Part shown: positions 69 to 20,943 of the stretch, piece after piece
Numbering within the stretch: the first letter of the stretch is position 1
How the letters are laid out: the number at the start of each line of letters is the position of its first letter
Assembly: GCF_006345805.1 (NCBI RefSeq)
Contig: NW_021823583.1
Span: forward strand, 1 to 21,824
Reading direction: 5' to 3'
DNA length: 21,824 bases
Source of the DNA: Octopus sinensis
Lineage: Eukaryota
Program-made: the position numbers and the translations under genes
The notes under the pieces: generated by a model
Told to the model about the DNA's origin: nothing
Databases searched by the model: none
Seen by the model: only the letters and a program-made list of their open reading frames with translations

Positions 69-280
69 AAGGCGTTGAAGAGTCAGAGCCGTTAGCACGC
101 CGTACAAAATGCTTGGAGGTATTTAGTCTGCTGCGCGTTGTGGGTTCAAATTCCGCCGAGGTCGACTTTGCCTTTCATCCTACGGAGAGCGATAAAATAA
201 GTACCAGTTAAACACTGGGGTCGATGTAATCGAGTAGCAAATTTCTCGGCCTTGTGCCAAAATTTGAAATCCATATTATT
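69..280 (+). mobile_element. tRNA-derived SINE, monomeric copy
   Basis: Head aaggcg..gttagcacgccg, B-box ggttcaaattcc and core gaggtcgactttgcctttcatcc..gataaaataagtaccag; homologous to the copies at 904 and 1316. Confidence 0.85.
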
Positions 281-1540: not shown

Positions 1541-1920
1541 ATTGAAAAATATAAGCCTGAACTTAACCATTCTAATATTCTTATACAGAGAAACTCATCT
1601 CATTGAAAAACAGAAAAAAATATAAAGCGATTATCTCCCTTATACCGGACGAAATCCCTGATTACCTCCTCCTGCCTGGAACTCTCCTTTGCATTTCATA
1701 ACGAAGACATGACACGATGTAGGTAAAGAGATTTGAGAAATTTGAAAAGTTTAACACGAAACCGGTTATTTCTCAAAAAACTTCGTTACTATACACAACA
1801 TTTTATAACATTTTTTTAACATAACGACTTCGTTAACCTTATAAAACAAGCCTTCTCTAGTTTTTTCATTCTTTTCTATTTTTTATGCATCAAACGACGT
1901 ACTTTCATACACCAACTTTC
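1541..1920 (+). mobile_element. 3' remnant of a Penelope-like element (end of GIY-YIG domain plus HHR-bearing 3' region)
   Basis: 1541-1567 translates IEKYKPELN, like the I..KP.LN end of PLE GIY-YIG domains. An HHR motif follows at 1732-1777 and the segment ends at a (TG)/(TA)n tract. The right end is approximate. Confidence 0.55.
1732..1777 (+). ncRNA. Minimal type I hammerhead ribozyme motif, U3-A8 core variant
   Basis: Stem I tttgagaaat/atttctcaaa (10 bp); core TTGAAAA; short stem II gt-ttaac-ac; GAAA; palindromic ccgg; GTT triplet. Confidence 0.65.
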
Positions 1921-1923
1921 TCA

Positions 1924-1971
<48 letters not shown>

Positions 1972-1976
1972 TATAT

Positions 1977-2053
<77 letters not shown>

Positions 2054-2305
2054 TGCATATATATATATACACACATATGTGTATATGTCTGAATATATGT
2101 ATAGTATGTATTATATGTATATGACTACACAAACATATATATATATATACTGACGTATGTATATGTGTATGTAAATGAATGTATGTGTGTGTAAGCGTGC
2201 ATGTGTGTGTATGTTTGTGTGTCGTTATGTGTGTATGTATGCATGTATGTATGTATGTATGTATGTATGTATGTATGTATGTATGTATGTATGTATGTAT
2301 GCGTA
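1924..2305. repeat. Compound microsatellite (TG)n/(TA)n/(TAGA)n/(TATG)n
   Basis: Directly visible. Confidence 0.95.
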
Positions 2306-2805
2306 TACATAGAAATGGTCGTGCACTATTTGAAATAGCAACCAACAATGAATATCATATGAAAATATAGCACAGGGAAACAGAATGGGAGAGAGATAGG
2401 GAGTGAGAGATAGAGAGAGAGAAAGGAAGGGATGAGGCAGAGGGGGAGTGAAAGAGAGAGAGCGGGGAATTTATAAAGTTAATATATGCATGAATTGAGC
2501 AGCGCGTGCAACAGATGTCGAACGTCGATGCATGTCAGCAGCTGCCTCATATCTTTTATTCAATATCAGTGGAATATATCGATATCCTGATCTATCGATG
2601 AACGTTTGCGCACAGTGCTGCAATATATGCAACACGTGTTCAATATGCATTTCAAAATGGCCGAAGTATTAAAGTGAAACCTGAAATTCGTGCGCGTCTA
2701 CAGTTCGGAAAACTCGTGATTAGTAGACCAGAGACAAAAAAGGTGACGCCCTGATGCAAGTTTTTATGCAAAACATGCCCCCCCCCCACACACGCATGTA
2801 TATTC

Positions 2806-2837
<32 letters not shown>

Positions 2838-3000
2838 GCTCACACAATAACACAGGATGACGTACACCAGCATATGGAGGCGGAGTTACACGAAGACATC
2901 CGCACATATCCCCGCAGTAACCGCTTGGACATTTTGTTTTTTATTTTGTGTGATTATGTATATCTCTGTTCGTTATCTGTATGAGTGTATATATATATGC

Positions 3001-3061
<61 letters not shown>

Positions 3062-3092
3062 TATTATATATATATACATACATACATATATA

Positions 3093-3303
3093 TTCTTTTA
3101 TTCTTTTACTTGTTTCAATCATTTCACTGCGGCGATGCACGGCCTTTAGTCGAGCAAAATGGCCCCAGGACTTATTCTTGAAACCTTGATCTATCGGTCC
3201 CTATTACCGAACTGCTGTGTTACGGGGACGTAAAAACATCACCATCGGTTGTCAAGCGACGTTAGGGGAACAGACAGACAGACAGACAGACACACACACA
3301 CAC

Positions 3304-3349
<46 letters not shown>

Positions 3350-3830
3350 ATTTATTTATGCGACCTTTTCAAGCCTAACCAGGCTCATGGGCCCGGGTTC
3401 CCGGTTTCTGTGGCGTGTGTGTTCTCCCCAGCTGTACGGGACGCCAGTCCATCGCAGCGTTACTCGAGAAACAGGAAGGAAGAGTGAGAGAAATTTGGGG
3501 CGAAAGAGTACAACAGGAGTCGCCACCACCGCCTGCCGGAGACTCGTTGAACTTGAGATGATTCCGCTCAATAAATACACACAACGCCCGGTCTGGAAAT
3601 CGAAACTGCGATTCTCCGACCACTGGGTCATTGCGCCTCAATATATATATATATAATATATATATATGATATATATATATATATATATACATTTATAGAC
3701 AGCGGGGTCTTTTCCGTTTCCGTCTACCAAATCTACTCACAAGGATTTGTCTGCCCGAGGCTAGAGTAGAAGACGCTTCACAAGGTGCCACGCAGTGGGA
3801 CTGATCAAAGTAAGGAAGCTACTTACCACA
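3093..3830 (-). mobile_element. tRNA-derived SINE with internal microsatellite, interrupted by a second SINE
   Basis: Head side at 3700-3830 (gctacttaccaca, caaggtgccacgcagtgggactga) and tail side at 3093-3290 (ttcttttacttgtttcaatcattt..cggttgtcaagcga). Other fragments of the family lie at 5958, 7910, 10010 and 13181. Confidence 0.8.
3350..3639 (-). mobile_element. tRNA-derived SINE nested in the microsatellite of the host SINE
   Basis: The reverse complement starts gaggcgcaatgacccagtggt..tttcgatttcca. Its 5' part is homologous to 8129-8325; the tail is different and ends cataaataaa. Confidence 0.8.
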
Positions 3831-4032
3831 TAAATCCAAAGCGTTGTATTTTCAGAAAACAAGAAAATAGTATCCCCATTCCATATGAAAACCATTTGGC
3901 AATTTTTGATATCTTCGCATCTGAAGCAACTGGATATACGATAGTTTGACCGAAAATAAATATTGAAAAATCCACATTTGGCCAAATTTGGATGAACGAC
4001 ACAGTTTATCATAATACCAACGATATGTGTAT

Positions 4033-4077
<45 letters not shown>

Positions 4078-4102
4078 TATATATATATATATTATATATA
4101 TA

Positions 4103-4133
<31 letters not shown>

Positions 4134-4214
4134 GTATGTATGTATGTATATATATATATGTATGTATGTAGGTAGGTAGGTATGTATTCTCAGTGTGTTT
4201 ATTTTCTCGTGTTC

Positions 4215-4250
4215 CTTTCTGTTGAAGAGCGTAGGCTCGAAACGTAAATG
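4215..4250 (+). ncRNA. Atypical, degenerate hammerhead-like motif in a short element (about 4185-4315) between microsatellites
   Basis: cttt CTGTTGA a gagc-gtag-gctc GAAA cgta aatg: good stem II and GAAAC, but an A6U change, an extra A and a weak stem I. Confidence 0.3.
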
Positions 4251-4311
4251 ACCTTCGCACCTTTCCGCTATTCAAACACCTGTCCTCGTCTTTTGTTTTT
4301 CTGCAAATTTC

Positions 4312-4354
<43 letters not shown>

Positions 4355-4640
4355 TATATACATTCATATATATATGTATGTATATATGTATGTGTATATA
4401 TATTATGAATTATATATGTTCGTGTATGCATTCATACGAATACGTGTGAATTCTTGCTTTCATGTCGATTTATAAAAAGTTCTAAACTGAAGAATTACTT
4501 AATGCATCTGTAGTGTGCATACCTTTTGTACTTTACGAGAATATTGATTACAATAACTTCGATGTGTCGGCATGCTAGCCGTGTGTGTATGTACTTGTGT
4601 GTATGTATGCGTGTGAATATGTATATGTGCATATGGTTGT

Positions 4641-4697
<57 letters not shown>

Positions 4698-4812
4698 TTA
4701 TATATATATAAAAACTTAAAAAACTTAGATATGTTTCGACCAGAGATTGGTCCAGGCCATGTCTAACTTAATAGCACCACCTGATAGGATTATTCGAATC
4801 CTGTTTAAGTCA

Positions 4813-4898
4813 AGTTTTGTTCAAGTAGTGAGTTCTTGTTGGGTGAGTTGTATCCAGTTTTGTTCAAGTAGTGAGTTCTTGTTGGGTGAGTTGTATCC
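4813..4898. repeat. Perfect 43-bp tandem duplication at the LINE ORF end
   Basis: agttttgttcaagtagtgagttcttgttgggtgagttgtatcc starts at 4813 and again at 4856. Confidence 0.95.
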
Positions 4899-5870
4899 AA
4901 TTATGGGTGGCTTATCTGGTATTCTTTGAAGGAATCTATCCAGATTCTGTTTGAAGTTGATGGGATCCTTTTCCTCTTTGATCTCCCTCGGGACAATGTT
5001 AAATAGGGCAGGGCCTGTTGAGGAAAAGAAATTATGTTGCAGTGTACATGTATGTTGTGATCTTGAATTTGGCAGGGAACGTATAGCCCGTGGTCCAAGT
5101 CTCGGATGAACCTTGAAGCTAATGTTTAGGTCGTTTGGGCAAAGTTGGCGGTATATTTTCCACATCGTACAAATGATGTACCGCTCACGGCGACGCTGGA
5201 GGGAGTAAAGTTCAAGGCTTTAAGGCGATCCCAATAATCGAGAGCAGCCATGCCTTCAATTTGTTTAGTGAGAGCCTCTGGGGTGACTCAATTCTGGAGA
5301 TGTTTTGTCTTGTGTGGAGACCACAGTGGGCAGCAGTATCAAGGTGTGGCCGTACAAAGGATGAAAAAAGTGGTATGATGACACCTTGTTCTCTGGACCG
5401 GAAAGTTCTTAAGATCCAGGAACTCATCCTACGAGCTGTATCGACCTTCTTGTTGATGTGTGCACTCCAACTGAGATCGTCATCAACAATTACACCCAGG
5501 TCTCTGATATTGTTAGAGGCTGTGAGCGGTTCCCCTGAAGGAAGAGAGTATGGTTGTTTTAGTGAGGAATTTCTTCCAAAATGCATCAGCTCAAATTTTC
5601 CCTCATTCAGTTGCATTTTGTTTCTGTCTGCCCATTGACTCACAGCATATAGGTCAGACTGGAGTTGAGTTCGGTCTGCTTCTTCATTGACGATTTGCTG
5701 GAGCTTAGTGTCATCAGCGAATATTTTCACTTTGCAGTGATGTACGACACTGGAAAGGTCGTTTACATAAATTATGAAGAGTAGCGGACCCAAAACAGTT
5801 CCCTGGGGAACACCGCTGGTGACTTTTGCTGGGTTTGAGTGGACTCCATCAACTACAACATGTTGTGTTC
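4821..5870 (-). pseudogene. Frameshifted reverse transcriptase ORF2 fragment
   Basis: Real portions of ORFs 5212-6054 and 4821-5165; frameshifts lie between about 5240 and 5345. The N-terminus of the 280-aa ORF is SINE/microsatellite read-through. Confidence 0.9.
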
Positions 5871-5957
5871 TATATATATTCATATGTATATATATATATT
5901 GTGTGTGTGTGTGCGTGTGTGTTTGTGTGTGTTTGTATGTGTGTATGTGTTTATATA

Positions 5958-6060
5958 GTCCGAGGCTATAGTAGAAGACACTTACCCAAGGTGCCGGGAT
6001 TGAACTCGGAACCATGTGGTTGGGAAGCATGCTTCTTACCACACAGCCACACATGCACCT
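5958..6060 (-). mobile_element. SINE head fragment (family of 3093-3830)
   Basis: cgaggctatagtagaagacacttacccaaggtgcc..gaactcggaaccatgtggttgggaagc..ttaccacacagccac. Confidence 0.8.
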
Positions 6061-6251
6061 TTATATATAGAGAGAGAATCGGGTGGATTCGTTATTTTTC
6101 TCTTTTTACCCGCGAAAGTTGAGAGTATTGCTGTCTGGGAAATATCTTATGGTAGTGGAAGAGTATTTCTAAATTACTGTGTGGTAAAGCAATTTTTGCT
6201 GACACCTAATTATAATTATGCTTATAATTATAGATGTATATATATATATAC

Positions 6252-6331
<80 letters not shown>

Positions 6332-6557
6332 GAAATATTAAAATTACTAAGTCTCTCTAAAAGAGAACAGCGGCAGCGTTCCCGGAAAATAATAGTTATC
6401 GCCATACTAATATGGCATTCTTATAAAAATAAGAATAAAGCTGTCCGCTTATTAGCTCCATGAGGCCATCGCCTTAAGTTAGCTATTTGATACACAAACT
6501 GTATCCATATAACCTTCGAACAACGGAGGTCAGTCGCTCCACACTACTTGACCGGCA

Positions 6558-6598
6558 GCTACAGACGCGTTTCGGGGTATTGCCCCTTTTCATGCAGC
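6558..6598 (-). ncRNA. Hammerhead ribozyme copy (one core T missing)
   Basis: Reverse complement of the 7356-7397 motif with a 1-nt deletion, possibly a sequencing error. Confidence 0.7.
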
Positions 6599-6914
6599 GT
6601 AGCCAGCCAGTAGGTGTCGCTTCCGACCATCTCTGTTCGATGGTTTTATTTACCTAGTTTCGGTGGAATACATCCACTTGTTTTCAATAATAGAAATATT
6701 AAAATTACTAAGTCTCTCTAAAAGAGAACAGCGGCAGCGTTCCCGGAAAATAATAGTTATCGCCATACCAATATGGCATTCTTATAAAAATAGATAAAGC
6801 TGTCCGCTTATTAGCTCCATGAGGCCATCGCCTTAAGTTAGCTATTTGATACACAAACTGTATCCATATAACCTTCGAACAACGGAGTCAGTCGCTCCAC
6901 ACTACTTGACCGCA

Positions 6915-6956
6915 GCTACAGACGCGTTTCGGGGTATTGCCCCTTTTCAATGCAGC
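6915..6956 (-). ncRNA. Type I hammerhead ribozyme, U3-A8 variant
   Basis: Exact reverse complement of 7356-7397. Confidence 0.85.
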
Positions 6957-7355
6957 GTAGCCAGCCAGTAGGTGTCGTTTCCGACAATCTCTGTTCGATG
7001 GTTTTTTTACCTAGTTTCGGTGGAATACATCCACTTGTTTCACAATAATAGAAATATTAAAATTACTAAGTCTCTCTAAAAGAGAACAGCGGCAGCGTTC
7101 CCGAAAAATAATAGTTATCGCCATACTAATATGGCATTCTTATAAAAATAAGAATAAAGCTGTCCGCTTATTAGCTCCATGAGGCCATCGCCTTAAGTTA
7201 GCTATTTGATACACAAACTGTATCCATATAACCTTCGAACAAGGGAGGTCAGTCGCTCCACACTACTTGACCGGCAGCTACAGACGCGTTACGAAACTAG
7301 GTAAATAAAACCATCGAACGGAGATTGTCGGAAGCGACACCTACTGGCTGGCTAC

Positions 7356-7397
7356 GCTGCATTGAAAAGGGGCAATACCCCGAAACGCGTCTGTAGC
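7356..7397 (+). ncRNA. Type I hammerhead ribozyme, U3-A8 variant; predicted cleavage after GUC at 7391
   Basis: gctgca TTGAAAA gggg-caata-cccc GAAA cgcg TC tgtagc. Stem I extends through a tac bulge to tggctggc/gccggtca and ctac/gtag. Confidence 0.85.
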
Positions 7398-7563
7398 TGC
7401 CGGTCAAGTAGTGTGGAGCGACTTACCTCCGTTGTTCGAAGGTTATATGGATACAGTTTGTGTATCAAATAGCTAACTTAAGGCGATGGCCTCATGGAGC
7501 TAATAAGCGGACAGCTTTATTCTTATTTTTATAAGAATGCCATATTAGTATGGCGATAACTAT

Positions 7564-7608
<45 letters not shown>

Positions 7609-7618
7609 GCACACACAC

Positions 7619-7890
7619 ACAGGCACGACAGAAGTGAATGGACTCCATATAAAACGTTGAGTTATGTTTATTTTAACTTGAAAAGGTTTATATTGTTTAT
7701 TAATGGACATTTTTATGTTTCAGGTTCTATATGTGACTGTTTAATCATGCTACGTACTACAGAAACCTGGGGAATGTTCAAATTTTACATACTCCGTATT
7801 GTGGGTCAATCTGAAGGTGAAAACCTTGGGATCCCGCTTTCTACATTTAATAGGGTCATTGTGTAGTTCACCAGTGAAGGGGAAAGTGTC
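7619..7890 (+). mobile_element. 5' fragment of a Tc1-like transposon (degraded N-terminal HTH)
   Basis: [34 protein letters not shown] resembles a Tc1 first HTH with an internal deletion; TIR-like start caggcacgacagaagtgaatggac. Confidence 0.5.
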
Positions 7891-7907
7891 CACTTTACGT
7901 TGACAAC

Positions 7908-7952
7908 TACTATCGTTTGACAACCGATGTTCGTGTGTTCACGTCCCCGTAA
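7908..7952 (+). mobile_element. Small SINE body fragment
   Basis: atcgtttgacaaccgatgttcgtgtgttcacgtccccgtaa is the reverse-complement homologue of about 3220-3260. Confidence 0.7.
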
Positions 7953-9987
7953 AAGAGAATCGTCGAAGAAGGCCATGTGTTTCAAAAAACATGGGAATTA
8001 CAGAATTGTTGCACAACGATGAACGGAAAGATACGTTGTTTAATTTGCAACAACTGCATTGCCACGCCGAAAGAGTACAACTTAAAAAGATATGAAATGA
8101 ACCATCGATCTAACTGTATATATGAAGGCGTGGAGACGCAATGGCCCGGTGGTTGGGGTAGCGGACTCACGGTCGTAGGTTCCCGGTTTCGATTCTCAGG
8201 TCGGGCGTTGTCAGTGTTTATTGAACGAAAAACACCTAAAGCTCCACAAGGCTCCAGCAGGGAGTGGTAGTGAACCTTGCTGTGCTCTTTCACCACAAAT
8301 TTCTCTCACTCTTTCTTCCTGTTTCTGTTGTACCCGTATTTCAAAGGGCCAAACTTGTCACACTTTGTGTCACGCTGAATCTCTCCGAGAACTACATTAA
8401 GGGTACACGTGTCTGTGGAGTGCTCAGCCACTTGCACGCTAATTTCACGAACAGGCTGTTCCGTTGATCGGATCAACTGGGACCCTCGTCATCGTACCCG
8501 ACGGAGTGCCATGATATATATCAAGGTCCAATGCGTGTTTCAAGTCTCAAGGAGCAGAATGCTAACTTGACACAGCAACAGACCTGTTTAACGCAAAATC
8601 AGAAAGGTAATTTCGCTTGGGTTACTGCAATTGATGAACTCAGCTGAATGATCACCACGAATGGGAAATGTTACGTTGAAGGAGACTTCGTAAAGACTTC
8701 GGATTCATCATTTGCACATTTTCACTGTATTATTTGTGTTGAAAGATTTTAAAATTGGGTCATGCGCTTAATTTGGTCACAAAGACAGTGAATTACAACA
8801 AAGGCCATGCTCTCAACGATGATCAATTCAGACAGTTCTTGGAAGATAGTCAGTTCACTGTTGTTCTATTCTACACAAAAGTCCGCTGTTTGTCATGCTA
8901 CAATGTGCTTAAAAGATTTTATTTGTTCAGACAAGAAATAATTATACTTTTCGAGATGAATGGTTAAAACACAGATGAAATATAAGATGATAGTTGACTC
9001 CAGGATCTGACATTTGCTGTGGACATTACTGCACTACTAACTGATCTTAGTTTGAAATTACAAGGTAAAAACAAACTCACCACTTAGCTACATGATGACA
9101 TCATTTGCTTCATTAGAAAATTAAGCTTATGGAAGTCACAGTTGTCAAATGAAAATTTAGTTCATTTTCCTAAGCGCAAAAAGTAAAAAAAAAAAAAAGT
9201 GCAAATACTGTGTCTGTACTTAACTTTGCCAAGTATGACAGTAACCTGGAATTCTTGTCAAAGGAATTTCAGGAAAGGTTTCGTGATTTCTCAACTTTTG
9301 AACATCCGTTTGCCTTATTCGCAGCACCATTCACCTTTGATGTTGCTAAGGCAGAAGAAAGCCTGGAACTATTAGAAATGCAGTCGAATCTTTCACAAAG
9401 ATCAAAGTATTTTCAAGTGGGGATACCAGGTTCCTTTTCATACCTTCTTGAAAACTTTAAAAGCTTAAGAAAGTTTACCTCAGGGATTATTGCAATGTTT
9501 GGTTCTACCTGTGAATTTGGATATTTATTTTCATTCATGAAATCAACAAAATTTCTCAGAGAACAAGATTGACTAATGAAGATTGACTTGTTATCTCTGA
9601 TCAGACCCAGAGCTGCACAGACATTTCAGCCAGACATACCAAAGATTGTCAGCAAAAGAGGTGTCAAGCCTCAGGACAAAACACTAAGAATGTCTGAATA
9701 GTCGTAAATAAATGATCATTTTAAACTATTGTAGTTTTTGTACAATGCATTTGTTGCTATTGCATTCAAATCTATGTTGCCGTTTAAAATTTCGTTTTTG
9801 TTTCCTTTTCTCAAACTACTTCATTACTTTGCATTCTTGAATGTGGCAAAACCATTTGATGCTTCTAAGCTTTATTAAAGAAAATATTCTGCAATAATGT
9901 CTATTATAATTGAAGTGAGTGCGGCCCTCATGACAACATAAATGCACACCATATGGCCCTCGCGGGACCCTACGTTTGTCATGCATG
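7953..9987 (+). mobile_element. Decayed hAT transposon, Buster/Charlie/SPIN type (GTF2IRD2-like transposase), 5' end lost
   Basis: BED finger FQKTW..CLICNNCIATPKEYNLKR; GKCYVEGDFVK; FHCII; VTKTVNY..YTKVRCLS..VLKRFY; dimerisation region IAMFGST..LFSFMK. 3' TIR-like gtttgtcatgcatg (9974-9987) is followed by ttcTActa, matching the nnnTAnnn Buster target. Confidence 0.88.
8129..8514 (+). mobile_element. tRNA-derived SINE inserted into the hAT transposase, with 12-bp TSD
   Basis: A/B-box-like head tggcccggtggttgg..gtttcgattctc; TSD tatatatgaagg (8117-8128) and tatatatcaagg (8515-8526). Confidence 0.85.
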
Positions 9988-10075
9988 TTCTACTACATCA
10001 ACTACATCATCGGGTCAACCAAAACGTTTTGAGTAGAATTGTTAGACAGAAACTAAAAGAAGTTCATCGTGTGTG
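9988..10075 (+). mobile_element. SINE fragment (family of 3093-3830), probable target of the hAT insertion
   Basis: ttctacta..tcgggtcaaccaaaacgttttgagtagaattgttagacagaaactaaaagaag is the reverse-complement homologue of 3700-3770. Confidence 0.65.
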
Positions 10076-10084
10076 TGGGTGATT

Positions 10085-10127
<43 letters not shown>

Positions 10128-10159
10128 CGCACAAACATACATTGAAAGGGTGAATAGTC

Positions 10160-10201
10160 ACTACAGATGAGTTTGTAATTTTCGAACGAAAATAGTCTAG
10201 T
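10160..10201 (+). ncRNA. Degenerate hammerhead motif
   Basis: acta CAGATGA gtttg-taatttt-cgaac GAAA ata GTC tagt; U4 is mutated and stem III lacks its C. Confidence 0.5.
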
Positions 10202-10917
10202 AAACTGATCTAGTTTCGCTGTGGGTCGTTTATCTCCCCTATTAGTATATGAAACTGTGCTTCTTTGCCGTTGTGCTTTTAACTCTTATTTCTAGCAATA
10301 CAGGTTCTCCACGGCACCTTCGGTCACAGTTGGTTTTATAATGCGTTTTTAATAGCATAACTTAGTTATTTCTTTAAATTTATATTCGCTAATTATTCCC
10401 ATTGATAATTATATTTATAGTATTTATAGTATTTATTCGATACTATATTACTACGAATTGATTATTTCTAAAAGTATTTTACATAAGATTTCCGAAAGTT
10501 CGTTTAAGTTTGTTTATTTGTATTTTGAAATTAGCTATTTCATCTTTAAATATGAAAAATTAAATTTATAAGGTTTTTATTATATGAGCATATACATTTA
10601 TTTATAGAGATTATTTTAGATCTTAATTTTAATATTTATATACATTTATTTATTTTCATTGATAATTTATATATATTAGTCATTTTTAAATATTTATGTA
10701 ATTAGATATAGACTAATACCGATAATAGATTATGGGTGGGTTTCCTACCTTATAAATTAAAATTAATACTTAACATTATAGTCGATTTTGATATAATCAT
10801 AATTGTTAAGTTCTATGTTTCTAGTTTGATAATAGAGTTTATTATAAGTAAAATTATTATATTATTTATATCTTAAAAATATTGTTTAAATATTTCTGAT
10901 TATATTTTAGATATTTC

Positions 10918-10992
10918 AATCACCTGAAGATTGACTGTAACCATAACTCGAATTATTACGAATTGGACAGCCATGAAACGATCGTAGTGCTT
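10918..10992 (+). ncRNA. Type I hammerhead ribozyme with canonical core and long loop II
   Basis: aatcac CTGAAGA ttgactgt..acagccat GAAAC gatc GTA gtgctt; palindromic loop III; a few stem mismatches. Confidence 0.75.
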
Positions 10993-11134
10993 TACTCATT
11001 ATCTTTTATTAAACTTTTAATATTTTTGATATATATTTAAAATAATTTAAATCAATTAATTTTATGTATTGGCTTAAGTTTTTCATTGTTTGATTTGCCT
11101 AATAGTGGTTTTATCTCTAATTTAATATAATATA

Positions 11135-11230
<96 letters not shown>

Positions 11231-11263
11231 TGTATGTATAGTTTAGGACAATCAGTAGGTTGT

Positions 11264-11323
11264 CATAATAGAACTCAGAGTTACAAATACCGGATCTACG
11301 ATGCATTCTCATCGGCTATTATG
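11264..11323 (-). ncRNA. Degenerate type I hammerhead at the 3' end of the PLE remnant
   Basis: Reverse complement reads cataatag CCGATGA gaatgc..gtattt GTAA ctc-t-gag TT ctattatg: three helices retained, two core substitutions. Confidence 0.6.
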
Positions 11324-11658
11324 GAAATAGATGCTATAAAAACCGTTGAATAAAAGGGAGGTCACTCTAATAGGTACGAAAAATACAAGATGAAAAAATA
11401 CACGCAACCATATTCTCACAATACATAGACATTATACTTCTTGCGTTCATAACGTCTCCATACGAACACACGCAAACATGTATATGTGCATGCTCATACA
11501 CACACAAGCATATATGTGTACATGTACACGCAACCTCATTCTCATATACACATAGGTGTATGCCTGCATACATATATATTATCTAGGCATTCATATATAT
11601 ATATAGTTTACTAAAAAAACAAAAGACGAAGACATGTGGTGTAAAAAGAAACAGATGT

Positions 11659-11701
<43 letters not shown>

Positions 11702-12104
11702 GCATACATTTACACTCACCGCATATACAAATATACATATATATACATATGCGCACAGATATATATATAATATTATATATACATATACACCCTCCTATCA
11801 TACACATACAACCACAGATATGCGAGCATATACATGTCCGCATAATGAAAGGTACGTATGCATGAAAGTCACAATTATGCACTGGGCACAGTCCTACACA
11901 CATATACATATATACAAGCGTAGACATATATACACTCGCACACACATACACATCTAATATATACGTATATATACATATACTCCCACACGTGCACAATCAC
12001 ACAATTAAATAGGAATAAAAATGAAAATATTATATAAAACAATAAAACATGTGAAGACATGGAAAGCTTCAGATTCTATCCGTGATCTTGGGGGACCCAA
12101 AACC

Positions 12105-12478
12105 GTAAAAGGTATTTTGTTATATATGGACATCATCTAAAAAATTCAGTTCTTGAATTTAGACATGCATTGGGGTCCAACGAACTTTTTCGGATAAGCC
12201 ATCTTTCCATATCACAAAGACCGCACTTGCCGCTACTCTTCGCATAATGTTTATACTTGGCCAAGATCTTCCACTAAATCTTATAGCTGACACCTTGTTC
12301 TTTTAAGAACCATATAAGACTGGATAATTTGGTAGTTTTTCGTTTATCCCAGTGTCTGAAGCTTAGGGTGTGATTATTGAAGCTTTAAAATTTCCCTCTA
12401 TGAGACCCACATATCTGTTTGACGAATCTGTTTTATTAGCACTCGTAGAATTTAAGGTGGCTTCATAAACAATGACCT
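12105..12478 (-). pseudogene. PLE GIY-YIG endonuclease remnant (Neptune-like C-terminus)
   Basis: IVYEATL..YVGLIEGNFK /fs/ NNHTLSFRH..TKLSSLIWFLKE..WKIL..CGLCDMERWLI /fs/ LNSRTEFFR*CPYITKYLL. Confidence 0.85.
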
Positions 12479-12574
12479 CGGTCATACATATATATACATA
12501 TATATATACATATATATATACACACAAATATACATACATACACACACACATACATACATACATACATACATACA

Positions 12575-12606
<32 letters not shown>

Positions 12607-12962
12607 CGAGGGAATTACCAATATGTGGAAACCCTAATACTACAAGTAGATCAGCGATGGTCACTACCACTAAGAATTGTTCTCTAGAAAATTTAGCAAA
12701 CACCAGAAACGTAAGCGAGCAAGACAAATGAAAAGCAACAAAAATACATATCAATCATAAACAATGTGTTTCACTTTCAACAAATTACGTAATTTTACTT
12801 ACGCAATTTATCTGTAGATCTTCAGTATGATCGTCCATACAAATATAATTTGCAGAACGTTTCTGGTGTTTGCTAAATTTTCTAGAGAACAATTCTTAGT
12901 GGTAATGACCATAGCGGATCTACTTCTACCATTAGGGTTTCCACATAGTGGAAATTCCATCT
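12607..12962. mobile_element. MITE with about 106-bp terminal inverted repeats and TA flanks (Tc1/mariner type)
   Basis: 12607-12712 is the imperfect reverse complement of 12857-12962; TA at 12605-12606 and 12963-12964. Confidence 0.85.
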
Positions 12963-13070
12963 TACATGTTTGTAATACTATTTACTGAACCTCAGTTTTT
13001 TAATATGCTAGACCACTAGTGTTAAATTGATGTTATCAAATTAATATCCAATTTTTCACCCTCATTTTAA

Positions 13071-13076
<6 letters not shown>

Positions 13077-13160
<84 letters not shown>
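13077..13160. repeat. Long pure (TA)n tract
   Basis: Directly visible; one of many such tracts in the window. Confidence 0.95.
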
Positions 13161-13164
<4 letters not shown>

Positions 13165-13180
13165 ATATACATACATAGAC

Positions 13181-13240
13181 ACAAGGTGGTGCCCCAGCAT
13201 GGCTGCAGTCTAAGATGATTGAAATAATTAAAAGCAATGA
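13181..13240 (+). mobile_element. SINE 3' tail fragment (family of 3093-3830)
   Basis: aaggtggtgccccagcatggctgcagtc..tgattgaaataattaaaag is homologous to the reverse complement of 3100-3145. Confidence 0.65.
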
Positions 13241-13764
13241 GGTACACGCACACACGCGCACACACTCACACACACAAACACACCGATATGGATTGCAAAA
13301 TCTACCGACAAATCCCGGGAGCTCTGAAAATAATTCTTCATTTGGAACACATTGTATAATGAAATGGTAATATTTGGCACTATTAAACGTTCTCTAGAGA
13401 AATTTTCGTTACCTTTAAAAAATCTCCTCGGCTCAATAAATCTATGTCTTCCAGAAGTTGTATCCAGGACACTTAGAAATTGTGTTCTCAATTTAAAAGT
13501 ACATAGCTACGTGAATATTTTCACACGCACGCACATACTCACGACGTATATACACTTGCACAAACATATATATATATATATATACGTACATACACACATT
13601 TTTTATACATATACGCATGCCTAAACATATACTTGCTCCCACATACATACTCAGGCATTCACACAGAAGCACCCTTACTCACGAATACACACTACACACT
13701 CGCACAAACGCAAGCAAACACTTGCACACACACACGCGCACAGTCACACACACATATATATATA

Positions 13765-14651
13765 TAGGGTCATTCAATAAATAATACGTTTTTTCGTACT
13801 TTTATTTTTCCAAATTAAGATAAACAGAATGTTTTTAATCTAAAATATACTCTCCTTCATTTTCTATAATGTTCTTCCATCTATCTGGTTGACTTGCAAG
13901 GCCCCTCTCCCAAAATTCACTTGTTCATTATAAAAAATACTCCTCCAAGACTGTTCTGACCTCCTCTACAGAATTCATATTTTATTCCGTCCAAATGATT
14001 TTGAAGACTGCGGAATAAATGATAATCAAATGGGGCAATATCCGGCGAATATGGTGGGTGTGGCATCGTTTCCCATTTAAACTGCTCCAACCTTGGGAAT
14101 GTCATCCTCGCTGTATGTGGCCGAGCATTATCCTGATGGAAGAATGGTCATTTTTCTTCTAGCGCTGACTTGAATGACGGGTTGAATGACCAAGCCAAGC
14201 TTCTCTATTAGTTCCTCAGCAGTAACAATGTGATTTTATCCCACCGGGTTTTGTAGGTCGTCATCGTCGAGTTCTAAAGATCTTCGAGGTCTAAGCTGTC
14301 ATTTCCGGCTCGGAATTTCTTGAACTACCCTTGACACTAGCTCACGCTTATGGTCCGATCGCCACATACTGCATTAATATTCCTAGCACTCTCCGTTGCG
14401 TTGTTGCCTTTATTGAACTCATAAAGCAAAATATGCCGAATATGCTCCTTTGTCACTTCCATTAATCTTTGAAAAATATAACTGTTAAAATCGAATTGCA
14501 CTCTTCCAAACTTGCACTAAGAATAAAGTCAAGGTAAAATTACTACCTGCTTTTACAGCAAATCGATGCAATACAGGCAGTTTATCCCGACCCCATTCCA
14601 ACTTTTTGTTTATGTAATTGAAAAAAACGCATTATTTATGGGATGACCAAA
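13765..14651 (-). mobile_element. Internally deleted mariner transposon with both TIRs
   Basis: TIRs tagggtcattcaataaataatacgttttt and aaaaacgcattatttatgggatgaccaaa with TA flanks. MEVTKEHIRHILLYEFNKG from the ATG at 14462; HQDNARPH and HPPYSPDIAPFDYHLF motifs; central part missing, stops present. Confidence 0.92.
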
Positions 14652-14674
14652 TACGCACACATACACACAGACAA

Positions 14675-14754
<80 letters not shown>

Positions 14755-15045
14755 GCGCGTGTATGAGTGTGTGTGATGTATGTAATGATACGTGTCATAC
14801 CTTAATAGGAATGTTACAATACAGCACACCTGGTCGACACGAAAATAATTAAATAATGCCTGCTGTTGCAAATTTGCAAATAGGTAACATTTGATGGGCG
14901 TGGCCCCATACGACACTATTGACGTTTGGAATCGATCACCTAATCACACACTCAAACACACACACACGCATACTTGTATATATACATATGTATGCACGTA
15001 AATATGTGTATATGTTTATATATATATATATATATATATATAAAT

Positions 15046-15105
<60 letters not shown>

Positions 15106-15237
15106 AGTTATGCCCGTCAACAGTATATATATATATCTAGGTATATTTGGCATCCATCTATCCATCCATACATACACAGATAATACATATATGTGTGTGC
15201 ATGTATATATATATATATACAAATTCATTTATATATA

Positions 15238-15280
<43 letters not shown>

Positions 15281-15587
15281 TATATATATATATATATATA
15301 TACATATAATTTCAACAATTGAGGGTAAAATTAATTAATTAATTAATCAATTTCACCAAGTATTCAGTATGCAAAGGGACCATTTAAGGCAAATTCAAAT
15401 TATTACATTATATAAAAGGGCTTAGTAAAATAAATTACTTTGCCGCATACTGAACTCGTTAGAAATAGCAGCTAAAAAAAAAAAAAACTATTTCTAACAC
15501 TTAAAGAAAACCTCTCTCATATAGTGCTTGTCAATTCAACCCAAGAAAGTATGAGGGTAGGACATTAAAAAATCAAATGCAAAGGTT

Positions 15588-15647
15588 ATTTGAGTACGTA
15601 CGTTTCAAGATTAGCCAAATTCGACCCTTCTCTCATCAGCTCAGAAT
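15588..15647 (-). ncRNA. Type I hammerhead ribozyme
   Basis: Reverse complement of the 18084-18143 motif. Confidence 0.85.
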
Positions 15648-16147
15648 GCCCTTGTTTGAGTTTGAAAACACTGAAAATGGGAGCATACCCTTTCGGCTTG
15701 TTATCGCTTCTGAAGATCTGCTCCCAACTAACAGTGCTAGCTAACTCAAATATGCAAGAGAAAGATTTCTGTTCTCCCCTTTCCACCAGCGTGGGTTAAA
15801 ATCAGCAAACACTACGCTTTTTTTCGGTAAAATCCAGACAATTAAGTAGAGAGAGATGAATTATAATTTCAACAATTGAGGGTAAAATAATTAATTAATT
15901 AATCAATTTCACCAAGTATTCAGTATGCAAAGGACCATTTAAGGCAAATTCAAATTATACATTATATAAAAGGGCTTAGTAAAATAAATTACTTTGCCGC
16001 ATACTGAACTCGTTAGAAATAGCAGCTAAAAAAAAAAAAAACTATTTCTAACACTTAAAGAAAACCTCTCTCATATAGTGCTTGCTCAATTCAACCAAGA
16101 AAGTATGAGGGTGAGAGGTAAGACATTAAAAAATCAATGCAAAGGTT

Positions 16148-16207
16148 ATTTGAGTACGTACGTTTCAAGATTAGCCAAATTCGACACTTCTCTCATCAGC
16201 TCAGAAT
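16148..16207 (-). ncRNA. Type I hammerhead ribozyme
   Basis: Same motif with one loop II substitution. Confidence 0.85.
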
Positions 16208-16698
16208 GCCCTGTTTGAGTTTGAAAAAACTGAAAATGGGAGCAACCCTTTCGGCTTTTATCGCTTCTGAAGATGCTCCCAACTAACAGTGCTAGCTAAC
16301 TCAAATATGCAAGAGAAAGATTTCTGTTCTCCCCTTTCCACCAGCGTGGGTTAAAATCAGCAAACACTACGCTTTTTTTCGGTAAAATCCAAGACAATTA
16401 AGTAGAGAGAGATGAATTATAATTTCAACAATTGAGGGTAAAATTAATTAATTAATTAATCAATTTCACCAAGTATTCAGTATGCAAAGGGACCATTTAA
16501 GGCAAATTCAAATTATTACATTATATAAAAGGGCTTAGTAAAATAAATTACTTTGCCGCATACTGAACTCGTTAGAAATAGCAGCTAAAAAAAAAACTAT
16601 TTCTAACACTTAAAGAAAACCTCTCTCATATAGTGCTTGCTCAATTCAACCCAAGAAAGTATGAGGGTAGAGACATTAAAAAATCAAATGCAAAGGTT

Positions 16699-16758
16699 AT
16701 TTGAGTACGTACGTTTCAAGATTAGCCAAATTCGACCCTTCTCTCATCAGCTCAGAAT
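16699..16758 (-). ncRNA. Type I hammerhead ribozyme
   Basis: Same motif. Confidence 0.85.
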
Positions 16759-17537
16759 GCCCTTGTTTGAGTTTGAAAACACTGAAAATGGGAGCATACC
16801 CTTTCGGCTTGTTATCGCTTCTGAAGATCTGCTCCCAACTAACAGTGCTAGCTAACTCAAATATGCAAGAGAAAGATTTCTGTTCTCCCCTTCCACCAGC
16901 GTGGGTTAAAATCAGCAACACTACGCTTTTTTTCGGTAAAATCCAAGACAATTAAGTAGAGAGAGATGAATTATAATTTCAACAATTGAGGGTAAAATTA
17001 ATTAATTAATTAATCAATTTCACCAAGTATTCAGTATGTAAAGGGACCATTTAAGGCAAATTCAAATTATTACATTATATAAAAGGGCTTAGTAAAATAA
17101 ATTTCTTTGCCGCATACTGAACTCGTTAGAAATAGCGCTAAAAAAAACTATTTTTTTAGCTGCTATTTCTAACGAGTCAGTATGCGGCAAAGTAATTTAT
17201 TTTACTAAGCCTTTTATATAATGTAATAATTTGAATTTGCCTTAAATGGTCCCTTTGCATACTGAATACTTGGTGAAATTGATTAATTAATTAATTAATT
17301 TTACCCTCAATTGTTGAAATTATAATTCATCTCTCTCTACTTAATTGTCTTGGATTTTACCGAAAAAAAGCGTAGTGTTTGCTGATTTTAACCACGCTGG
17401 TGGAAAGGGGAGACAGAAATCTTTCTCTTGCATATTTGAGTTAGCTAGCACTGTTAGTTGGGAGCAGATCTTCAGAAGCGATAACAAGCCGAAAGGGTAT
17501 GCTCCCATTTTCAGTGTTTTCAAACTCAAACAAGGGC

Positions 17538-17596
17538 ATTCTGAGCTGATGAGAGAAGGGTCGAATTTGGCTAATCTTGAAACGTAGTACTCAAAT
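17538..17596 (+). ncRNA. Type I hammerhead ribozyme (1-nt deletion in loop III)
   Basis: Reads gaaacgtagtactca here. Confidence 0.75.
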
Positions 17597-18083
17597 AACC
17601 TTTGCATTTGATTTTTTAATGTCTCTACCCTCATACTTTCTTGGGTTGAATTGAGCAAGCACTATATGAGAGAGGTTTTCTTAAGTGTTAGAAATAGTTT
17701 TTTTTAGCTGCTATTTCTAACGAGTTCAGTATGCGGCAAAGTAATTTATTTTACTAAGCCCTTTTATATAATGTAATAATTTGAATTTGCCTTAATGGTC
17801 CCTTTGCATACTGAATACTTGGTGAAATTGATTAATTAATTAATTAATTTTACCCTCAATTGTTGAAATTATAATTCATCTCTCTCTACTTATTGTCTTG
17901 GATTTTACCGAAAAAAAGCGTAGTGTTTGCTGATTTTAACCCACGCTGGTGAAAGGGAGAACAGAAATCTTTCTCTTGCATATTTGAGTTAGCTAGCACT
18001 GTTAGTTGGAGCAGATCTTCAGAAGCGATAACAAGCCGAAGGGTATGCTCCCATTTTCAGTGTTTTCAAACTCAAACAAGGGC

Positions 18084-18143
18084 ATTCTGAGCTGATGAGA
18101 GAAGGGTCGAATTTGGCTAATCTTGAAACGTACGTACTCAAAT
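18084..18143 (+). ncRNA. Type I hammerhead ribozyme, predicted cleavage after GUA
   Basis: attctgag CTGATGA gaga-agggtcgaatttggctaa-tctt GAAAC gtac GTA ctcaaat; stem I extended by caaggg/cctttg. Confidence 0.87.
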
Positions 18144-18635
18144 AACCTTTGCATTTGATTTTTAATGTCTCTACCCTCATACTTTCTTGGGTTGAATTGA
18201 GCAAGCACTATATGAGAGAGGTTTTCTTTAAGTGTTAGAAATAGTTTTTTTTAGCTGCTATTTCTAACGAGTTCAGTATGCGGCAAAGTAATTTATTTTA
18301 CTAAGCCCTTTTATATAATGTAATAATTTGAATTTGCCTTAAATGGTCCCTTTGCATACTGAATACTTGGTGAAATTGATTAATTAATTAATTAATTTTA
18401 CCCTCAATTGTTGAAATTATAATTCATCTCTCTCTACTTAATTGTCTTGGATTTTACCGAAAAAAAGGCGTAGTGTTTGCTGATTTTACCCACGCTGGTG
18501 GAAAGGGGAGAACAGAAATCTTTCTCTTGCATATTTGAGTTAGCTAGCACTGTTAGTTGGGAGCAGATCTTCAGAAGCGATAACAAGCCGAAAGGGTATG
18601 CTCCCATTTTCATGTTTTCAAACTCAAACAAGGGC

Positions 18636-18694
18636 ATTCTGAGCTGATGAGAGAAGGGTCGAATTTGGCTAATCTTGAACGTACGTACTCAAAT
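18636..18694 (+). ncRNA. Hammerhead copy with GAAA reduced to GAA
   Basis: 1-nt deletion, possibly a homopolymer sequencing error. Confidence 0.7.
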
Positions 18695-19181
18695 AACCTT
18701 TGCATTTGATTTTTTAATGTCTCTACCCTCATACTTTCTTGGGTTGAATTGAGAAGCACTATATGAGAGAGGTTTTCTTTAAGTGTTAGAATAGTTTTTT
18801 TTAGCTGCTATTTCTAACGAGTTCAGTATGCGGCAAAGTAATTTATTTTACTAGCCCTTTTATTAATGTAATAATTTGAATTTGCCTAAATGGTCCCTTT
18901 GCATACTGAATACTTGGTGAAATTGATTATTAAATTAATTAATTTTACCCTCAATTGTTGAATTATAATTCATCTCTCTCTACTTATTGTCTTGGATTTT
19001 ACCGAAAAAAAGCGTAGTGTTTGCTGATTTTAACCCACGCTGGTGGAAAGGGGAGAACAGAAATCTTTCTCTTGCATATTTGAGTTAGCTAGCACTGTTA
19101 GTTGGGAGCAGATCTTCAGAAGCGATAACAAGCCGAAAGGGTATGCTCCCATTTTCAGTGTTTTCAAACTCAAACAAGGGC

Positions 19182-19241
19182 ATTCTGAGCTGATGAGAGA
19201 AGGGTCGAATTTGGCTAATCTTGAAACGTACGTACTCAAAT
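19182..19241 (+). ncRNA. Type I hammerhead ribozyme
   Basis: Same motif, intact. Confidence 0.87.
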
Positions 19242-20166
19242 AACCTTTGCATTTGATTTTTTAATGTCTCTACCCTCATACTTTCTTGGGTTGAATTGAG
19301 CAAGCACTATATGAGAGAGGTTTTCTTTAAGTGTTAGAAATAGTTTTTTTTAGCTGCTATTTCTAACGAGTTCAGTATGCGGCAAAGTAATTTATTTTAC
19401 TAAGCCCTTTTATATAATATATATACATATATATATACATGTATACATACATATATGTACCTGTTTTAGAACACAAAGAAACAAATGGTATTTGTACGTT
19501 GCCAAAAATTTTAATTGACTATATAGTTAATTTAATTTAATCTAATTTAATTAACCCAACTTAAATCAAATAAATTGCTAATACTTCCTAATTCTATTAT
19601 AAGTTTAATAAGTAATGCTACTCCCTTAATAATAATATAAGGAATTTTCACTATGATTTTCACTATATTTTGAATAAAAAAATACTCTCACACCTTTTAC
19701 TATAGAAATTAATTGACCTCTAGGTATAGACCTAAAGTCTGTCTTAAAATGTATAAATATTTGTATAAATAGTAACAATAATAAATAAATAAATAACCTC
19801 CTGTTCTAGTATTGCACTTAAATCTCTTAATGTATTTTCCTCTTTGACCCCTTTGATACTTTTTTTGTTCTCTTTATATTCTTTTACCTGCTTTAAACTC
19901 TGTAGGAGTGGTAGTTAACAGTTGTATGATGGTCAAAAGTAATGTTCTCTTCTATAAATCTCAGATTCCTGCAACTCTGACCTAAATTTTCTGTCACCAC
20001 ACAAATAAACTAATCTTTGTAAGTTGTGTACTTACACCCCTCCCTCCCTTTTGTCCCATAATGCCCTTATTTGGTTGGTTTCTGCTTCACTGACTCCTTT
20101 TAGCCAATATAGTCAATCTCTTCTTCCAACATAGTAGTTTTGTGAAATGAACAGAAGTGTGATCAG

Positions 20167-20288
20167 TATCTTCTCATATATCAGGAAATTACATCTACAT
20201 TATTATGGATAAATTCATCGTCTCTGAGTATGAAATATCTCCTCATATCTCCGGAAAGTACACCTGCATTATTATGGATAGATTTACC
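20167..20288. repeat. Diverged 69-bp-period direct duplication
   Basis: tatcttctcatatatcaggaaattacatctacattattatggata versus tatctcctcatatctccggaaagtacacctgcattattatggata. Confidence 0.8.
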
Positions 20289-20943
20289 TTTTCTGTGAAG
20301 CTAACAAACTTTTTTTAAAACCTTTTATAAAACTGTGCATCATTAGAGAACTTTTGAAGTCTGCTTACAATCTAACTTTGCTTTTTATAGAACTCTCTTC
20401 GATACTTCATGAGTGTAGCCTCACCCCCTAGGATGTTTGGAAAACTCATATGTGTTTTGGCTGATGAATACGGGACACTTATATTTGCAGTTTTTAATAA
20501 AGCTGTTCTTCGTATGAAACAATTGTCCTGAACAACTAATCCATTCTTGTTGCTTTTTTCTTGTTTATAATCACCCCACATTATTTTATGGTTAATACCA
20601 TATAGATTTCTGGTGCATCTAAGTTAAGTACCGCATTCATGTAATTCATTGGAACTCACTTGAATCTTAATTGTTTTTTACTGAAAATATATATACATAT
20701 ATATATAATATATATATATATATTATTATATATATATATATATATAATATATATATATATACAATATATATAGCATGTGTGATGGATGTATGTACGTATG
20801 TATGTATGCATGTATATATGGATAGATGGATGGATGGATGGATGAGTGGATGGATGCCTAAATATACACAGATATATATACTGTTGACGTGATAAGACTA
20901 TAAACTTCCAGGAAGGCGTAAAATAATTCCTTTTTGTAAGAAT

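What the first reader, a model, noticed from the sequence alone, without database searches (positions are those of the whole stretch)
1732..19241. Hammerhead hotspot: six or seven unrelated HHR families within 18 kb
Seen: motifs at 1732, 4215 (atypical), 6558/6915/7356, 10160, 10918, 11264 and seven in the 550-bp array. Helices I and II differ among families, while helix III is mostly a tiny palindrome (ccgg, acgt, cgcg, cgatcg, ctc-t-gag, cgtacg). Each lies in a segment ending at a microsatellite. Inference: (TA)n tracts act as repeated landing sites, so HHR copy number in this genome may be very high and under-annotated. If this is an intron, active copies could cut the host pre-mRNA on either strand.
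Basis: partly seen in the sequence, partly recalled or inferred. Interest (0 to 1): 0.72.

Follow-up and report, generated by a model that had tools for sequence, protein, structure and literature searches.

The report
Penelope-retroelement hammerhead cluster in TA repeats
This 22-kb piece of a likely octopus genome holds nine different jumping-gene insertions that each carry a small predicted self-cutting RNA motif, four of them traced to the ends of Penelope-type retrotransposons and the rest likely their non-coding passengers, so it is a crowded sample of a known and very common kind of element rather than a new system.

Summary
The motifs are real: 9 strict minimal type I hammerhead hits against 0.07 in shuffles. 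All 15 motifs listed are present, 9 with a full core and palindrome, and two more were missed (12752, 20456), giving nine repeat families. Four are 3' ends of Penelope-like elements (PLEs): 1732 is Neptune-type; 20456, 10918 and 11264 are Hydra-type. 10160 probably is too. The 551-bp and 362-bp arrays are young non-coding, retrozyme-like units inserted as two back-to-back arms. One arm ends at each of two fixed sites in 17 of 17 and 15 of 15 loci, the PLE 'tail' mark. A 600-kb systematic sample gives about 90,000 such motifs genome-wide (55,000-140,000). The window is about 9-fold denser than average, an upper tail that chance alone gives in about 40 windows. The intron idea is untestable, because the window is a whole unplaced contig; cutting of host RNA is unlikely. 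Minimal PLE hammerheads and (TA)n targeting are published, including an octopus Hydra element. This scan found the same pattern on other DNA (26 notes). Cleavage and RNA circles are untested.

The parts
1541..1925 (+). 3' end of a Neptune-type PLE: last codons of the GIY-YIG endonuclease, 3' UTR, ends at (TA)n
   Evidence: 9 of 9 other loci carry PLE protein upstream on the same strand; linker CX4CxxC and CCHH in L057/L059; 1917 first-look candidates
1732..1777 (+). minimal type I hammerhead, U3-A8 core, helix III CCGG, predicted cut after 1767
4188..4314 (+). short old SINE-like element ending in (AT)n; hammerhead 4215-4250 with family-wide A6U, 2-nt helix III
   Evidence: A6U in 9 of 10 other copies; canonical-core version found 32 times, reversed control 0; no PLE ORF near
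6326..7566 (.). 362-bp non-coding unit, two back-to-back arms (minus 6326-7290, plus 7292-7566), 3' ends outward at unit positions 238 and 175, both into (TA)n
   Evidence: 1215 candidates, best copies 97-99% identical
6556..6605 (-). hammerhead of the 362-bp unit, one core base missing
6915..6956 (-). intact hammerhead, U3-A8 core, helix III CGCG
7356..7397 (+). intact hammerhead, U3-A8 core, helix III CGCG, predicted cut after 7391
10150..10347 (+). old PLE-like 3' fragment with decayed hammerhead 10160-10201, cut short by the next element
   Evidence: relatives have a canonical core in 5 of 8 and CUAG in 8 of 8; Hydra-type endonuclease remnant upstream in 1 of 9 loci
10348..11127 (+). 5'-truncated 3' UTR of a Hydra-type PLE; hammerhead 10921-10989 (CGAUCG)
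   Evidence: continuous with RT and endonuclease in L136/L135, 2 of 6 extended loci; 2209 candidates
11240..12480 (-). 5'-truncated Hydra-type PLE: broken endonuclease remnant (match 12193-12375), microsatellite-rich UTR, decayed hammerhead 11264-11323
   Evidence: tblastn E=3.6e-7; 831 bp shared with L084 at 74%; U4C in 9 of 10 relatives, GAAA in 10 of 10
   Evidence: 2638 candidates; no sense-strand PLE ORF near
15305..19418 (.). 551-bp non-coding unit, back-to-back arms joined near 17145, 3' ends outward at unit positions 285 and 183, both into (TA)n
   Evidence: 1572 candidates, full units 93-98% identical
15591..16754 (-). three intact hammerheads (15591-15643, 16151-16203, 16702-16754), helix III CGUACG
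17542..19238 (+). four hammerheads: 18088-18140 and 19186-19238 intact; 17542-17593 and 18640-18691 with one-base deletions
19460..20686 (+).
   Evidence: endonuclease upstream in 6 of 11 other loci; 4.1-kb copies L142/L143 with RT, endonuclease and inverted 5' copy; 2920 candidates

Best explanation
The window is a pile of nine independent insertions of repeat families that carry minimal type I hammerhead motifs near their 3' ends; four are the truncated ends of Penelope-like retrotransposons, and the others are likely non-coding passengers of the same enzymes. Likely mechanism: the PLE GIY-YIG endonuclease cuts (TA)n DNA, and the reverse transcriptase starts inside the RNA at fixed sites 36-293 nt downstream of the hammerhead, so short copies keep the hammerhead. 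When both sides of the break are primed, two arms form with 3' ends outward, one from each of two start sites. In tandem transcripts two hammerheads would pair through the palindromic helix III and cut out unit-length RNA; for the 551- and 362-bp units this likely gives circles that template the arrays. Shown: motifs, families, PLE links, end geometry, array homogeneity, density. Inferred: cleavage, circles, priming, and which PLE moves the passengers.
For: Shuffles give 0.07 against 9. PLE reading frames run into four families. Autonomous PLE L126 (780 aa, RVT_1 plus GIY-YIG) has the same kind of U3-A8 hammerhead about 570 nt after its ORF and ends in (AT)n; 7 of 30 GIY-YIG loci have one downstream on the sense strand. 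With helix III unconstrained, 16 of 29 distinct hits in 1.0 Mb are palindromic, against 0 of 12 in shuffles. Relatives of the 362-bp motif keep the palindrome by double changes: CGCG, CAUG, CUAG. One arm ends at each of two fixed sites in 17 of 17 and 15 of 15 inverted loci, like the tail and the two start sites in PMC8557442 and PMC11167929. In the 551-bp family 42 variants are fixed within a locus, 35 of them seen on both arms, and only 3 are shared by a subset. The units fold strongly as circles, z -5.3 and -4.6.
Against: No PLE ORF was linked to the 551-bp, 362-bp, 4215 or 12752 families, and only 1 of 9 loci links 10160. No mobilising partner was found. Some arrays mix unit variants (L152, L175, L176, L177; 10 subset-shared against 17 fixed variants in the 362-bp family), so a single monomer template is not the rule. 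Family-wide A6U (4215) and U4C (11264) cores suggest that some families spread with weak ribozymes, and in vitro PLE insertion did not need hammerhead cleavage (PMC11167929). Clades were assigned by motif, with no tree.
Confidence: 0.9

Rival explanations
1. A true local hotspot: something about this locus, beyond its TA content, attracts or keeps PLE-type insertions.
For: 5 distinct families against 0.58 expected; still P=0.005 after scaling for TA density. 20 similar unplaced contigs hold at most 2.
Against: The window was picked for this feature; about 43 windows would reach it by chance. TA tracts are 1.8 times denser than average. The families differ widely in age, 72-99% identity.
Confidence: 0.2
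2. The cluster lies in an intron and active copies cut the host pre-mRNA, with a regulatory effect.
For: Ten motifs have intact cores; three tandem intact copies on the minus strand could dimerise.
Against: No host exon was recognised: the ORFs are repeats or transposon remnants. Single minimal hammerheads are inactive in vitro (PMC4209133). By anatomy, a read-through transcript meets the antisense arm first, which would pair with the hammerhead arm (inference). Retrozymes are depleted from Xenopus introns (bioRxiv 10.64898/2026.07.22.740005).
Confidence: 0.05
3. The 551- and 362-bp arrays are ordinary satellites that grew by DNA-level expansion.
For: Units within an array are more alike than units between arrays, 0.004 against 0.012 substitutions per site.
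Against: They are dispersed, young and short arrays with fixed ends, a central inversion and (TA)n flanks at 37 of 38 3' ends of the 551-bp family; opposite arms share private variants.
Confidence: 0.05
4. The motifs are chance matches in AT-rich DNA.
For: A very loose descriptor gives 11.9 hits in shuffles.
Against: Strict and tolerant descriptors give about 0 in shuffles; families conserve or restore the core.
Confidence: 0.01

Closest known systems
Minimal hammerheads of metazoan Penelope-like elements (Cervera and De la Pena 2014, PMC4209133; read parts 1-2 of 4)
   Same: Type I, short palindromic helix III, U3-A8 variant, many unrelated families per genome, mostly in truncated PLEs, opposite-strand pairs 100-700 bp apart.
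   Different: Estimated count here is about 90,000, against 2,000-9,000 reported for schistosome, coelacanth and frog (different descriptors, so not strictly comparable). Family-wide U4C and A6U cores occur here.
Hydra-clade PLEs, including Hydra-1_Obim of Octopus bimaculoides (Craig et al. 2021, PMC8557442; passages, section 11, supplement rows)
   Same: RWK, DKT, CxCX5C linker, no CCHH, hammerhead with palindromic helix III near the 3' end, (TA)n targets, inverted 5' copy.
   Different: Other families: longer (about 4 kb or more against 2.5 kb), with different hammerhead sequences. No alignment to Hydra-1_Obim was run.
Neptune-type PLEs (PMC8557442)
   Same: DKG, CX4CxxC linker, CCHH endonuclease, hammerhead in the 3' UTR, microsatellite target (1732 family, L126).
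   Different: Neptune was not separated from Nematis by a tree.
Metazoan non-LTR retrozymes (PMC7229834, passages; bioRxiv 10.64898/2026.07.22.740005, parts 1-2 of 5, supplements not seen)
   Same: Non-coding tandem units with one type I hammerhead each, size in the reported 51-972 bp range, proposed PLE origin.
   Different: The hammerheads are the minimal palindromic kind, not the canonical loop-loop kind. Two-armed insertions with two fixed ends were not described in the parts read. Circles are untested here.
PAc (Poseidon of Anolis) insertion mechanism (Frangieh et al. 2024, PMC11167929; read parts 1-2 of 4)
   Same: Two internal start sites define a tail; AT-rich targets; predicted protein dimer; protein-assisted hammerhead.
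   Different: Tails here are about 63 and 100 nt against 30-40, are used one per arm, and end in UA-rich words that resemble the target, whereas PAc starts were not homologous to the target.

Membership tests
Minimal type I hammerhead (PLE type) | Core CUGANGA / GAAA / UH, or the U3-A8 variant | tested here: met
   11 of 17 motifs in the window have it, 10 of them with a palindromic helix III; of the other six, 4215 and 11264 carry family-wide core changes
Minimal type I hammerhead (PLE type) | Helices I and II can form; helix III is a short palindrome | tested here: met
   16 of 29 against 0 of 12 when unconstrained
Minimal type I hammerhead (PLE type) | Self-cleavage as a dimer or with PLE protein | not testable with these tools
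   needs an in vitro assay
Neptune-type PLE (1732 family) | RT followed by C-terminal GIY-YIG with CX2-5CxxC linker and CCHH | tested here: met
   Pfam on the related L126
Neptune-type PLE (1732 family) | Placement in the clade by RT phylogeny | not tested
Hydra-clade PLE (20456, 10918, 11264) | RWK, DKT, CxCX5C linker, no CCHH, CxxC/CxH | tested here: met
   all in L142/L143; DKT and CxCX5C in L136; only the CxxC region in the 11264 remnant; Pfam hits are below cut-off
Hydra-clade PLE (20456, 10918, 11264) | Insertion in (TA)n, 5' truncation, inverted 5' copy | tested here: met
Non-LTR retrozyme (551- and 362-bp units) | Dispersed non-coding tandem units with one type I hammerhead per unit | tested here: met
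Non-LTR retrozyme (551- and 362-bp units) | Canonical hammerhead with loop 1-loop 2 tertiary contact | tested here: inconclusive
   by eye they look minimal, with no clear loop 1; no structural test was run
Non-LTR retrozyme (551- and 362-bp units) | Expressed as unit-length circular RNA | not testable with these tools
   only assembled contigs of runs guessed to be RNA were available
PLE-mobilised element (551- and 362-bp units) | Tandem plus inverted structure with a tail at one end only | tested here: met
   17 of 17 and 15 of 15 inverted loci

The most novel reading that the evidence does not exclude
The 551- and 362-bp units are circular-RNA parasites that a PLE enzyme dimer copies into both sides of one (TA)n break, each subunit starting at a different fixed UA-rich site of the same template. 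The strict one-end-per-arm rule would be the genomic footprint of the unsolved PLE insertion step, in a genome that holds about 90,000 hammerheads.
Probability: 0.45. Interest if true: 0.62.

Novelty: new member of a known kind. Interest (0 to 1): 0.38.

Why it matters
It replaces a 'hotspot' with a census: about one hammerhead motif per 30 kb, invisible to Rfam here, in a likely octopus genome. I found no such census in print (searches of an open-access library), although one octopus Hydra PLE with its hammerhead is published. The young two-armed arrays give ready templates to test how PLEs start reverse transcription at two sites and whether animal retrozymes ride on PLE enzymes. Their long inverted arms would also form double-stranded RNA if read through.

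Tried and rejected
Rfam scan: no hammerhead model matched; the 61 hits are microsatellite noise.

Very loose descriptor: not separable from shuffles, dropped.

Search for an autonomous partner of the 551-bp, 362-bp, 4215 and 12752 families: 40 PLE peptides against 9-11 other loci each (1.5-kb flanks) found no sense-strand ORF. Hits in L053, L080, L290 and L291 were not shown to be continuous with the family and were not counted. Matches of these families inside PLE loci lay beyond the (TA)n end, so they are separate insertions.

Expression: no RNA holder is on record. Contigs of three runs guessed to be RNA and one unlabelled run cover parts of the unit at lower identity; this is no evidence either way, and no silent-stretch control was laid.

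Placing the contig: the unique stretch matches only itself.

'Always one monomer template' was rejected as a rule: four arrays are mixed.

Rows dropped from the end counts: L181 (duplicate of L180) and L168 (one arm runs off the fetched stretch). Four non-inverted loci per family were counted apart.

Look-ups of earlier findings by place and by sequence returned nothing.
Full report
Setting. The window is the whole unplaced contig G000:C54 of a 2.72-Gb animal genome, rich in TA-type microsatellites. I call it likely octopus from recalled repeat style and from this scan's notes on the same genome; this was not tested. Twenty neighbouring contigs are 21.6-35.8 kb long, which suggests single long reads, so one-base deletions here may be errors (inference).

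Observation. Rfam finds no hammerhead among 61 matches at E<=1. A strict type I descriptor that allows the U3-A8 core finds 9 motifs, against a mean of 0.07 in 40 shuffles. A tolerant one finds 10 motifs in 5 families, against 0 in 10 shuffles at score >=8. All 15 listed motifs are present: 9 are intact and 6 damaged. Two more lie at 12752 and 20456. The nine families share no DNA similarity beyond an 18-nt hit. Each is dispersed, with 84 to 2920 first-look candidates, of which only 32-40 were scored per search.

Damaged copies. Relatives of 10160 have a canonical core in 5 of 8 and the palindrome CUAG in 8 of 8. Relatives of 11264 have GAAA in 10 of 10 but U4C in 9 of 10. Relatives of 4215 share A6U in 9 of 10; these relatives were chosen by likeness to the window copy. 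A canonical-core version of the 4215 motif occurs 32 times, with 0 for the reversed control. PMC3088659 (passages) reports U3-A8 as active, low activity for an A6 change, and U4C as weak in vitro but tolerated in a viroid.

What carries them. The 1732 family is the end of a PLE: 9 of 9 other loci have PLE protein upstream on the same strand, and the window keeps the last codons of the endonuclease. Its CX4CxxC linker and CCHH motif are Neptune-type. The 20456 family has the endonuclease upstream in 6 of 11 loci. Two 4.1-kb copies carry RWK, DKT, CxCX5C and an inverted copy of the 3' end, the Hydra-clade signature of PMC8557442 section 11; Pfam hits for them are below cut-off. The 10918 family continues into a Hydra-type RT and endonuclease in 2 of 6 extended loci. 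The 11264 element keeps a broken endonuclease in the window itself. 10160 has one upstream in 1 of 9 loci. Independently, 7 of 30 GIY-YIG loci carry a U3-A8 hammerhead downstream on the sense strand, including the 780-aa element L126. No ORF was linked to the 551-bp, 362-bp, 4215 or 12752 families.

The arrays. Of 21 loci of the 551-bp unit, 17 are two back-to-back arms with hammerhead-sense 3' ends outward. In 17 of 17, one arm ends at unit position 181-191 and the other at 281-285, while the inner joints are variable. Of 21 loci of the 362-bp unit, two were dropped (a duplicate and a cut-off locus) and four are not inverted; 15 of 15 inverted ones end at 174-179 and 234-239. The loci were the best matches to queries that begin near the long end, so only the opposite arm is an unselected test. 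The ends fall in UA-rich words and run into (TA)n. The 12752 element has the same shape. This is the tandem, inverted and tail pattern of PMC8557442 (passages) and fits the two internal start sites of PMC11167929.

Array homogeneity. Opposite arms are about as alike as units of one arm (0.005 and 0.004 substitutions per site, against 0.012 between loci). 42 variants are fixed within a locus and 3 are shared by a subset, which favours repeated copying of one unit. Against a strict rule, the 362-bp family has 17 fixed and 10 subset-shared variants, and four arrays are mixed. Both units fold well as circles, z -5.3 and -4.6, and better in the hammerhead sense.

Density. Sixty evenly spaced 10-kb stretches of chromosomes C1-C20 hold 20 motifs (16 distinct) at score >=10, against 0 in 300 kb of shuffle; 400 kb of unplaced contigs hold 8 (6 distinct). 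That extrapolates to about 90,700 motifs (55,400-140,100, Poisson limits only; clustering would widen them). The window's 5 distinct families compare with 0.58 expected: P=3.4e-4, about 43 windows genome-wide, and P=0.005 after TA scaling. In the sample, 5 of 9 strict hits have a TA tract within 300 nt downstream and 0 of 9 upstream, against a 16% background; about 2 of the 9 are expected by chance. With helix III left free, 16 of 29 distinct hits are palindromic, against 0 of 12 in shuffles.

Mechanism. Likely, PLE endonuclease cuts (TA)n and reverse transcription starts at fixed sites just downstream of the hammerhead (36-293 nt to the outer tract for eight families), so truncated copies keep the motif. 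Priming at both sides of the break gives two arms. Tandem transcripts would cleave as dimers through the palindrome and may circularise. Cleavage, circles, priming and the partner enzyme are inferred.

Intron idea. The contig cannot be placed and shows no recognised host exon (only three window ORFs were scanned against Pfam). Single minimal hammerheads did not cleave in vitro (PMC4209133), and the PAc hammerhead needed protein. A read-through transcript would meet the antisense arm first (inference). RNA data gave no verdict.

Novelty. Minimal PLE hammerheads, the U3-A8 core, palindromic helix III, (TA)n targeting and an octopus Hydra element with its hammerhead (supplement rows) are all published. 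A 2026 preprint derives retrozymes from PLEs (its supplements were not seen and may bear on this). A 2026 octopus repeat annotation lists active PLEs and does not mention ribozymes in its main text (PMC13282606, passages). Searches found no octopus hammerhead census. This scan has 26 similar notes in at least 3 genomes. Verdict: real, new members of a known kind, interest 0.38.

Noticed in passing
L195, L213, L224, L245; contigs C57, C59, C62, C63; window 11264: U4C (CCGANGA) is the commonest core variant and recurs in several unrelated families: 4 of 16 distinct palindromic hits in 1 Mb. It may be a tolerated natural variant, or linked to CpG decay.
   Followed up: partly
window 4740-5870 (-): LINE reverse-transcriptase fragment (PF00078, E=3.6e-12); the resemblance to CR1-type elements is recalled.
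   Followed up: partly
window 7640-9960 (+) and 13917-14147 (-): Decayed DNA-transposon remnants, hAT/SPIN-like and mariner-like by recalled motifs; no Pfam hit at E<=0.001 for the two ORFs scanned.
   Followed up: no
window 117-233, 953-1069, 1134-1250, 1361-1477: Four copies of a SINE-like repeat; the 1732 PLE end abuts the last one.
   Followed up: no
window 15320-15353; L130, L203, L245, L292: The tail of the 551-bp unit holds a 34-nt AATT palindrome, and 73-85% similar segments occur in other families, including a roughly 590-bp tandem family with its own hammerhead. It is a candidate shared binding site for the enzyme.
   Followed up: partly
L176 (G000:C20:21557300-21561400): Two unit variants alternate over four units of one arm, a possible dimer template.
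   Followed up: no
L180 and L181: The same insertion with the same flanks on contigs C12617 and C4, likely an assembly duplicate.
   Followed up: yes
L126:1941-2831, L127:1674-3110, L128:5979-6818: Neptune-type elements have an overlapping upstream frame before the RT frame, perhaps a frameshifted ORF1.
   Followed up: no
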